A stretch of 64,000 nucleotides of DNA from a virus. Within the stretch, counting starts at the first letter, position 1, and every line of letters begins with the position of its first letter. Shown in pieces: positions 20,531 through 20,920 of this stretch. The DNA is taken from the IMG/VR virus record IMGVR_UViG_3300009509_000008, positions 1-64,000 of that record. One strand, written 5' to 3'. The position numbers were made by a program, and so were the translations under genes. Under the pieces are notes generated by a model, which was given only the letters and a program-made list of their open reading frames with translations, was not told the DNA's origin and ran no database searches.

Positions 20531-20557
20531 GTAAAAGGAGCACCAGTAGGGCGCTCC
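20531..20557 (-). terminator. Intrinsic terminator
   Basis: Minus strand GGAGCGCC-CTACT-GGTGCTCC followed by TTTTAC. Confidence 0.65.
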
Positions 20558-20920
20558 TCCCGGCCATTCGTCGGCCGGGTAACGTGACGGGGCATCTCCG
20601 CCGGTGCCTCTGCGCACCTTTCTACTCCTCCCATTACGGCGTCGGTGGGGGTCGGTCACCAGGCCGTTCGACTTATACGCTTAGGGCACTGCCCGTACGA
20701 GGCGACTAGGAACTGGATCTCCGGTGGTCCTTCGCACCTTGGCTAGGGAGGAGTGAAACGGAGAGGAAGCCGTCACGGCTTTGACTCGGTCTGTCGCCAT
20801 CTGCTGATCTTTTCGGTAAATGGGCCCCACTCTTCGCAGAGTATTCGGGGTACTCCCGTCGATCCTATTTCGATCAAACAAATCGCCGCACCCAGAATCT
20901 TGGCTAGGCTTTCCGTCTCC
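20531..20920 (-). ncRNA. Putative ~390-nt structured non-coding RNA
   Basis: Own promoter motif (20927-20954) and terminator. Long-range stems GAGACGGA/TCCGTTTC and ACTCCTCCC/GGGAGGAGT, several hairpins including a GCGA tetraloop; no convincing ORF. Confidence 0.6.

What the first reader, a model, noticed from the sequence alone, without database searches (positions are those of the whole stretch)
20531..20920. Unannotated ~390-nt highly structured RNA with its own promoter and terminator
Seen on the minus strand: promoter motif with predicted +1 at G20920. Domain 1 is closed by GAGACGGA(20912-19)/TCCGTTTC(20755-62) and contains ATTTGTTTGATC/GATCAGCAGAT, ACTCT-GCGA-AGAGT (20829-42) and AAGCCG-TGA-CGGCTT (20767-81). 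Domain 2 starts immediately after and is closed by perfect ACTCCTCCC(20746-54)/GGGAGGAGT(20624-32). Both domains carry the same 10-mer CCTAGCCAAG just inside their 5' closing strand (20899-908, 20738-47). Then come GGTGC/GCACC, CCCGGCC/GGCCGGG and a terminator. G-U pairs favour the minus strand. I do not recognise it as RNase P, tmRNA, SRP, 6S or an intron. Inference: a novel large phage ncRNA with duplicated protein-binding or tertiary-contact motifs.
Basis: partly seen in the sequence, partly recalled or inferred. Interest (0 to 1): 0.85.

Follow-up and report, generated by a model that had tools for sequence, protein, structure and literature searches.

The report
Orphan add-on RNA gene in phage
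An uncultured large phage carries a self-contained, roughly 390-base gene that most likely makes a folded non-coding RNA, sitting next to a tRNA look-alike; a nearly identical strain lacks it, and since no relatives could be found its fold and function remain unproven.

Summary
The stretch lies in a 1-kb gap poor in ORFs, where the phage's two gene arms converge.

For a stand-alone RNA gene:
- It has a two-box promoter found only here and at the neighbouring tRNA look-alike. This is a variant of the phage's own ATAAG promoters.
- It ends in a stable hairpin with a short U tail.
- No small ORF looks coding.
- A contig from another sample, 97-99.8% identical on its flanks, lacks exactly 20529-20966. 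The unit is therefore a dispensable cassette, probably an insertion.

Against "highly structured":
- Folding beats shuffles (z -3.6), but the opposite strand does too (z -3.2).
- 27 of 169 other windows of this genome fold as well.
- The closing helix of domain 1 has about zero predicted probability. Domain 2 and the 3' hairpins are robust.

There is no Rfam match. No homologue turned up in viral, metagenome or prokaryote collections, so covariation could not be tested, and no RNA run is listed.

Verdict: a probable orphan phage ncRNA gene, in the same setting as GOLLD and ROOL (beside tRNAs). Function is unknown. This scan has noted similar cassettes beside tRNAs in other phages, but none with this sequence.

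The parts
20529..20966 (-). Whole cassette (promoter, RNA body, terminator). It is present in the window and absent from a near-identical strain.
   Evidence: a 1621-nt contig of run X11 joins 20528 to 20967 with two other letters between. Its flanks carry 5 differences in 156 nt and 1 difference plus 1 gap in 634 nt. Contigs of run X7 carry 20300-20715 and 20730-20889 with 0 differences.
20921..20955 (-). Two-box promoter: upstream box TGCAAAAA (20955-48) and core ATTAGAATATT (20931-21), placing +1 at G20920.
   Evidence: both boxes occur only here and at 21200-21165 in the 88 kb; the same boxes with a different spacer stand before a different RNA in relative L026; the layout matches the phage's 8 GNNATAAGNNNTNYR sites, each with a CAAAWW-like box about 13 nt upstream. 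The sigma-70 consensus scan finds nothing.
20531..20920 (-). Predicted non-coding RNA of about 385-390 nt.
   Evidence: No Rfam match. Small ORFs score like off-frame sequence.
20755..20920 (-). The inner long arm (20883-72 / 20809-799) and the ACUCU-GCGA-AGAGU hairpin are predicted. The closing helix is not favoured.
20899..20908 (-). First copy of the 10-mer CCTAGCCAAG. Its predicted pairing is variable.
20624..20754 (-). Domain 2, closed by a 9-bp perfect helix with probability about 1.0. The helix is extended by 20755-64 pairing with 20595-20622.
   Evidence: (inverted repeat I1).
20738..20747 (-). Second copy of the 10-mer. Its last 8 bases are predicted unpaired (0.82-1.0).
20559..20618 (-). 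Two stable 3' hairpins: GGUGC/GCACC and CCCGGCC/GGCCGGG.
   Evidence: probabilities 1.00 and 0.99. Read on the plus strand, the first is called terminator-like.
20531..20558 (-). Terminator: an 8-9 bp G+C-rich hairpin followed by UUUUAC, abutting the stop codon (20528-30) of the converging 756-aa gene.
   Evidence: probability 0.98. The simple terminator scan did not list it on the minus strand. The tail has only four U.
20961..21200 (-). Neighbouring unit with the same promoter type: a tRNA look-alike (21163-21097) with a GAAA-capped stem in place of an anticodon loop, plus a second domain closed by a 10-bp helix.
   Evidence: Rfam tRNA, 42.1 bits; ARAGORN finds none; inverted repeat I4.

Best explanation
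This is an accessory, self-contained RNA gene cassette of 438 bp.

How it is made. It is transcribed leftward from a promoter type that this phage lineage seems to reserve for RNA genes. That promoter is a variant of the phage's two-box ATAAG promoter, so it is presumably read by the phage-encoded polymerase and sigma factor (inferred). Transcription would start at G20920 and stop at the hairpin-UUUUAC signal at about 20533.

What the product is. The product is a non-coding RNA of about 385-390 nt. Its 3' two-thirds (domain 2 plus three hairpins) fold stably. Its 5' third is less defined.

Where it sits. It lies in a hot spot for RNA genes at the convergent junction of the two gene arms, directly behind a tRNA look-alike unit with the same promoter. 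It was probably inserted there, because a near-identical strain and a more distant relative share the empty arrangement.

What it does (inferred, not shown). It acts in trans during infection as a protein-binding or decoy RNA, with the two UAGCCAAG stretches as candidate contact sites.
For: Unit and strand:
- The promoter boxes TGCAAAAA and AYTAGARTATTG occur only twice in 88 kb, before this RNA and before the tRNA look-alike, with unrelated spacers.
- The same boxes precede a different RNA of about 150 nt at the same junction in L026, the closest relative I could fetch (neighbour protein 60% identical).
- The layout parallels the 8 ATAAG promoter sites of the record.
- The terminal hairpin has probability 0.98.

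Non-coding:
- The gap 20531-21550 has no long ORF.
- All 8 small ORFs tested score in the lowest 3-11% of real coding chunks.
- 0 of 9 ORFs (8 of them overlapping the RNA) have a Pfam match above a family's cut-off; one weak sub-threshold match, DUF6411 at E 0.025, is listed.
- 0 of 10 are in the 15-billion-protein collection.
- The only hit of the longest minus-frame translation is a repeat artefact.

Cassette:
- The X11 contig lacks exactly 20529-20966.
- Its junction places the converging gene's stop inside the tail of the upstream terminator, as in L026. This is why I read the empty state as ancestral.

Hot spot:
- L028 has two true tRNAs at the same place.
- A contig of X14 diverges right after 20534.

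Fold:
- z -3.64.
- Domain 2 and the 3' hairpins have probabilities of 0.95-1.0.
Against: - No transcript evidence: no RNA run is listed.
- No homologue, so no covariation.
- Folding is no better than the opposite strand or than 27 of 169 other genome windows.
- The domain-1 closure is disfavoured.
- The 10-mer repeat is only marginally non-random.
- The consensus scans call neither the promoter nor the terminator.
- Being dispensable is also what junk would look like.
- No target by complementarity in the 88 kb: longest matches are 12-mers.
- No preferred duplex with the tRNA look-alike unit: 36 of 200 shuffles do as well.
Confidence: 0.55

Rival explanations
1. Transcribed but functionless filler. 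The cassette is a recombination scar or a decayed insert, for example a degenerated RNA or small gene picked up from another phage. It happens to keep a promoter and a terminator and has no selected fold.
For: - It is absent from a near-identical strain without other visible change.
- No homologue was found anywhere.
- Its folding energy is ordinary for this genome.
- The 5' third has no well-defined fold, and ensemble diversity is 68.8.
Against: - The promoter boxes are intact while the spacers have diverged from the sister promoter, which argues for a working promoter.
- X7 contigs from a different study carry the body with 0 differences over 576 nt.
- Permissive Rfam scans show no trace of a decayed tRNA or other known RNA.
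- No protein remnant was found.
Confidence: 0.2
2. A transcription insulator. The string of stable hairpins at the meeting point of the two convergent arms serves mainly as a two-way terminator block, stopping polymerases from both sides.
For: - Four tandem stable hairpins lie within 90 nt of the converging gene's stop.
- One of them is called terminator-like on the plus strand at 20603-20618.
- The strand skew switches here.
Against: - The unit has its own promoter pointing into it.
- 300 nt of it lie upstream of those hairpins.
- The strain without the cassette keeps the same convergent layout, with only the upstream unit's terminator.
Confidence: 0.12
3. It encodes one or more very small proteins, for example the 54-aa or 66-aa minus-strand ORFs or the 37-aa ATG-started part of the latter.
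For: - ORFs of 54, 66, 63 and 76 aa exist on the minus strand.
- In the unrelated contigs L002 and L005 the same 16-mer and 10-mer lie inside small genes, one of them a Pfam GP63 member.
Against: - Codon-usage scores are like off-frame sequence.
- The 54-aa ORF starts upstream of the predicted +1.
- I saw no Shine-Dalgarno sequence before the candidate starts in the sequence.
- 0 of 10 ORFs are in the protein collection.
- No Pfam family above its cut-off; one weak sub-threshold match, DUF6411 at E 0.025.
- No real homologue among 1.84 billion representatives.
- No protein-level similarity to L002.
Confidence: 0.05
4. A DNA-level element such as an origin, a packaging site or a protein-binding array. 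The direct and inverted repeats would then act in double-stranded DNA.
For: - It lies at the switch of gene orientation and skew.
- It has direct 10-mers 161 bp apart and a 20-nt repeat at 80% identity.
- Both strands fold equally well.
Against: - It is dispensable in a near-identical strain, which an origin or packaging site would not be.
- The motif is not found elsewhere in the record.
- The unit is bracketed by a promoter and a terminator.
Confidence: 0.05

Closest known systems
GOLLD (RF01998) and ROOL (RF03087) RNAs
   Same: They are large non-coding RNAs of unknown function, often beside tRNA genes and in phages or prophages. I read passages of the ROOL section of PMC5737381. For the cryo-EM preprint 10.1101/2024.12.08.627333 I saw only the listing and the start of the abstract. 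This RNA too sits directly behind a tRNA-shaped gene in a phage.
   Different: - No match to either model, even at E up to 10.
- It is 390 nt, against an average of 581 nt for ROOL and a longer GOLLD.
- It has no family and no covariation.
- Self-assembly is untested.
Stable species 1 and species 2 RNAs (rnaC, rnaD) of the phage T4 tRNA cluster
   Same: They are small stable phage RNAs of unknown function encoded next to tRNA genes.
   Different: As I recall, the T4 species are much shorter and are cut out of a common tRNA precursor. This unit has its own promoter and terminator. No sequence comparison was made.
Bacterial and phage Y RNAs (YrlA and relatives) with Ro60/Rsr
   Same: They are RNA genes with tRNA-like modules that cluster with tRNAs in some phages.
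   Different: - The only YrlA signal is 15.6 bits (E 5.2, gathering score 69), and it lies in the neighbouring unit, not in this RNA.
- No TROVE-domain gene is found in the 88-kb record, which is only 48% complete.
The phage's own ATAAG transcription units
   Different: The core reads ATTAG/ACTAG...TATTG instead of ATAAG...T.YR. This variant is confined to the two gene-less RNA units and to the RNA unit of L026.

Membership tests
GOLLD / ROOL | Match to the Rfam covariance model at or above its gathering score | tested here: not met
   No match at gathering score, nor at E up to 10 over 1.2 kb or over 401 nt.
GOLLD / ROOL | Location beside tRNA genes, in a phage or prophage | tested here: met
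   A tRNA-shaped gene at 21097-21163 lies 177 nt upstream on the same strand. The record is a virus record. The feature is as stated in PMC5737381.
GOLLD / ROOL | Conserved ornate fold with many multistem junctions and pseudoknots, supported by covariation | not testable with these tools
RNase P RNA, tmRNA, SRP RNA, 6S RNA, group I/II introns | Match to the Rfam model, or an ARAGORN call for tmRNA | tested here: not met
   Searches give no match. ARAGORN finds 0 genes in the window.
Y RNA (YrlA) with Ro60/Rsr | YrlA-type fold, and a TROVE-domain protein gene in the same genome | tested here: not met
   There is no YrlA match inside 20531-20920. TROVE (PF05731) gives 0 matches in the 88-kb record, which is only 48% complete.
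Independent non-coding RNA gene (generic) | Own promoter | tested here: met
   Met by motif only. The boxes are shared with the sister unit, with L026 and, in layout, with 8 ATAAG sites. It is not a sigma-70 consensus match. No transcription start was mapped.
Independent non-coding RNA gene (generic) | Own terminator | tested here: inconclusive
   The hairpin has probability 0.98 and is followed by UUUUAC. The simple scan does not list it.
Independent non-coding RNA gene (generic) | A discrete transcript | not testable with these tools
   None of the 20 listed runs is on record as RNA.
Independent non-coding RNA gene (generic) | Absence of coding signal | tested here: met
Structured RNA (fold under selection) | Folding energy beyond the genomic background and specific to one strand | tested here: not met
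   z -3.64 on the minus strand and -3.21 on the plus strand, against shuffles. 27 of 169 genome windows fold as well. Both strands have 12 G-U pairs.

The most novel reading that the evidence does not exclude
This is the first seen member of an undescribed class of exchangeable RNA 'morons'. They would be promoter-to-terminator RNA cassettes that phages with their own bacterial-type polymerase swap in and out at one junction, behind a dedicated RNA-gene promoter. This one would be a two-domain RNA that shows the same single-stranded UAGCCAAG word twice, to bind two copies of a host or phage protein. One possibility is that it works with the neighbouring anticodon-less tRNA look-alike as a decoy against a host RNA-targeting defence.
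Probability: 0.2. Interest if true: 0.65.

Novelty: new member of a known kind. Interest (0 to 1): 0.4.

Why it matters
Phages carry large RNAs beside their tRNA genes whose purpose is still unknown. GOLLD and ROOL are the best-known cases.

This locus offers a natural with/without pair of near-identical strains. It also offers a promoter type that seems reserved for RNA genes, in a lineage that brings its own polymerase.

If the RNA is expressed and its relatives can be fetched, the locus would allow three things:
- a simple test of what such an RNA adds to an infection;
- a look at how RNA genes are exchanged at a fixed genomic slot;
- a test of whether the promoter variant marks RNA genes for a particular time or polymerase form.

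As it stands, it is a single-sequence candidate without proof of fold, expression or function.

Tried and rejected
Searches for homologues that found nothing useful:
- Two 10-mers with a 136-166 nt gap in viral contigs gave 5 stretches. L003 and L006 are a GCC-rich repeat and L004 is a duplicated coding start. L002 and L005 are one cluster-A-type mycobacteriophage sequence. They also share the six bases before the first copy, but there the words lie inside a Pfam GP63 gene and a 57-aa ORF. They share no protein similarity with this phage. I treat this as an unexplained coincidence.
- The 16-mer in viral contigs gave 20 stretches. Only 2 of the 20 (L002, L005) have a second copy.
- The same two-10-mer pattern in genome contigs gave 40 stretches, about the number expected by chance and mostly tandem or REP-like repeats. 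0 of 40 resemble the RNA by nhmmer at E<=1.
- A tRNA-look-alike anchor pattern in viral contigs gave 0.
- blastn against phages gave no match. tblastn of the 756-aa neighbour against phages gave no match.
- The search for related loci with the 279-aa, 756-aa and PolA proteins gave no close relative.
- With an alignment of 756-aa homologues I got 1 viral and 8 metagenome loci. nhmmer with the RNA and with the tRNA-like unit hit 0 of 9.
- The full record behind L025 gave only a 17-nt chance match. L028 and L031-L033 are not held.

Other checks that led nowhere:
- Complementarity of the RNA to the 88-kb record: nothing above 12-mers.
- Duplex with the tRNA-like unit: not better than shuffles, 36 of 200.
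- Similarity of unit 1 to unit 2, and of the L026 RNA to unit 2: not significant, 68 and 130 of 300 shuffles reach the score.
- Weak Rfam rows (malK-III at 12 bits, a human lncRNA region at 9.5 bits): chance.
- No RNA holder is listed among the sequencing runs.
- Parts of the stretch without contig cover in X14 and X18 say nothing.

Supplements of papers were not opened.

Full report
**Setting.** The window is the first 64 kb of an 88-kb IMG/VR virus record that is about 48% complete. Plus-strand genes end with a 756-aa ORF at 20530. Minus-strand replication genes (PolA, RecA-like, Cas4-like nuclease, RusA and Holliday-junction resolvase) end with a 279-aa acidic protein at 21551. The 1-kb gap between them holds no long ORF. 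Earlier notes of this scan say the phage encodes its own bacterial-type RNA polymerase and uses a repeated ATAAG promoter. I confirmed the promoter motif myself: 8 sites in the record, 7 of them on the minus strand.

**The observation.** The RNA folds at -158.6 kcal/mol, z -3.64 against dinucleotide shuffles. Three controls weaken the claim of 'highly structured'.
- The opposite strand folds at -162.1, z -3.21. Both strands use 12 G-U pairs in their best folds.
- Among 169 other 390-nt windows of this genome, regressed on G+C, 27 fold at least as well on the minus strand and 14 on the plus strand.
- In the predicted ensemble the 3' two-thirds are well defined: domain-2 helix about 1.0, three hairpins 0.98-1.0.

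The repeated 10-mer is marginal on its own: 22 of 300 shuffles reach that alignment score. Its second copy is predicted single-stranded.

**A transcription unit.** The boxes TGCAAAAA and AYTAGARTATTG occur exactly twice in 88 kb. One pair stands before this RNA and one before the tRNA look-alike 240 nt upstream, and the spacers between the boxes are unrelated.
- The layout is that of the ATAAG promoters: a CAAAWW-like box, about 13 nt, then G-N-N-ATAAG and a start at a purine. The core is altered, however.
- L026 is a metagenome contig whose neighbour protein is 60% identical and whose gene order matches. It has the same variant promoter at the same junction, in front of a different RNA of about 150 nt.
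- A more distant relative, L028, has two true tRNAs there, behind a similar sequence.

The strand and the start at G20920 therefore rest on the promoter, not on folding. The 3' end is an 8-9 bp hairpin plus UUUUAC that touches the stop codon of the converging gene. The consensus scans list neither this promoter nor this terminator, so both calls are lineage-specific inferences.

**Not coding.**
- The small ORFs in the stretch score like off-frame sequence by the phage's own codon usage. They fall in the lowest 3-11% of real 40-codon chunks.
- None has a Pfam family above its cut-off.
- None of the 10 ORFs is in the 15-billion-protein collection.
- The longest minus-frame translation finds only a repeat artefact among 1.84 billion representatives.

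**A cassette.** I laid contigs of four runs on 20300-21600.
- X11 has a 1621-nt contig that runs from 20373 to 21600 but jumps from 20528 to 20967 with two other letters between. Its flanks carry 5 differences in 156 nt and 1 difference plus 1 gap in 634 nt.
- X7, from another study, carries 20300-20715 and 20730-20889 without a difference.
- The unit from promoter to terminator is thus present or absent as a block.
- In the empty form the converging gene's stop lies inside the tail of the upstream unit's terminator, as it does in L026. I therefore read the cassette as an insertion in this strain's line.
- A short X14 contig diverges just past 20534 into a different hairpin, which hints at a third state of the site.

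**No relatives.** Pattern scans, nucleotide searches, profile searches in nine related loci and a search of one related full record found no homologue. Covariation, the decisive test, could therefore not be run. No RNA run is listed.

**What it is not.** There is no Rfam family at gathering score or at E up to 10. ARAGORN finds no tmRNA or tRNA. The record has no TROVE gene. There is no significant similarity to the tRNA-like unit or to L026's RNA. There is no antisense target in the record.

**Reading.**
- Most likely (0.55): a dispensable, independently transcribed non-coding RNA gene dropped into an RNA-gene hot spot.
- Its action as a trans-acting protein binder or decoy is inference only.
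- The closest parallels are GOLLD and ROOL, which PMC5737381 describes as often near tRNAs and in prophages.
- A second parallel, from recall, is the stable species 1 and 2 RNAs of the T4 tRNA cluster.
- This scan has noted comparable orphan cassettes beside tRNAs in other phages, but no look-alike of this sequence.
- Rivals: functionless transcribed filler (0.2), a two-way terminator block (0.12), small proteins (0.05) and a DNA-level element (0.05).

**Score.** The finding is real and tidy, and the with/without polymorphism is useful. It remains a single-sequence candidate with ordinary folding statistics and no sign yet of conservation or expression. Interest: 0.4.

Noticed in passing
window 21097-21163 (-), with run X7 record 11: A 22.7-kb contig of a related phage carries the tRNA look-alike with 5 differences and 2 gaps. 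One change (plus-strand T>C at 21133) turns the GAAA cap of the shortened anticodon stem into GAGA, still a GNRA loop. The same promoter type lies upstream of it.
   Followed up: partly
window 21143-21290 (-): A full ATAAG promoter at 21290-21276 is followed by GGAGGTGGTGAC-ATG and a 38-aa ORF (21259-21143). That ORF runs across the RNA-type promoter into the start of the tRNA look-alike. The ORF has no Pfam match and is not in the protein collection.
   Followed up: partly
L026 3681-3840 (-): The closest relative I could fetch has, at the same junction and behind the same promoter variant, a different RNA of about 150 nt. It contains a T-arm-like GGGGTTCGAGTCCCT and a GCAA-capped hairpin. Rfam calls no tRNA there.
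   Followed up: partly
L028 6427-6575 (-): Two canonical tRNAs (67 and 66 bits) sit directly after the homologue of the 756-aa gene. The junction is therefore a slot for RNA genes across the lineage.
   Followed up: partly
L002 5873-6040 (-) and L005 3663-3830 (+): An unrelated cluster-A-type mycobacteriophage sequence holds the same 16-mer and, 152 nt on, the same 10-mer (12 letters alike with the window's first copy). There they lie inside a GP63-family gene and a 57-aa ORF. Chance expectation for the combined pattern is about 0.001 by my own estimate; I have no explanation.
   Followed up: partly
window 18260-20530 (+): The 756-aa protein carries an insert of about 266 residues (218-483) that is absent from its 11 homologues of about 500 aa. 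Those align only to residues 1-217 and 484-756. Neither Pfam nor PHROGs names any part of it.
   Followed up: no
window 20470-20534, run X14 record 4: A contig 89% identical over 65 nt leaves the window sequence just past 20534 and continues into a different G+C-rich hairpin. This suggests yet another occupant of the RNA slot in a related strain.
   Followed up: no
window 20531-20920 (-): GGAG occurs 8 times against 2.5 expected; 5 of 2000 shuffles reach 8. Most copies pair with CUCC-rich strands, so the domain-2 closing helix looks like a Shine-Dalgarno/anti-Shine-Dalgarno duplex.
   Followed up: partly
L035, L038, L044, L053, L055, L062, L066, L070, L072, L073: In rumen and gut Clostridia MAGs the word CCTAGCCAAG heads a repeated hairpin element of about 160-180 nt spacing, often near contig ends. 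It looks like a REP-like repeat family and is unrelated to this RNA.
   Followed up: no
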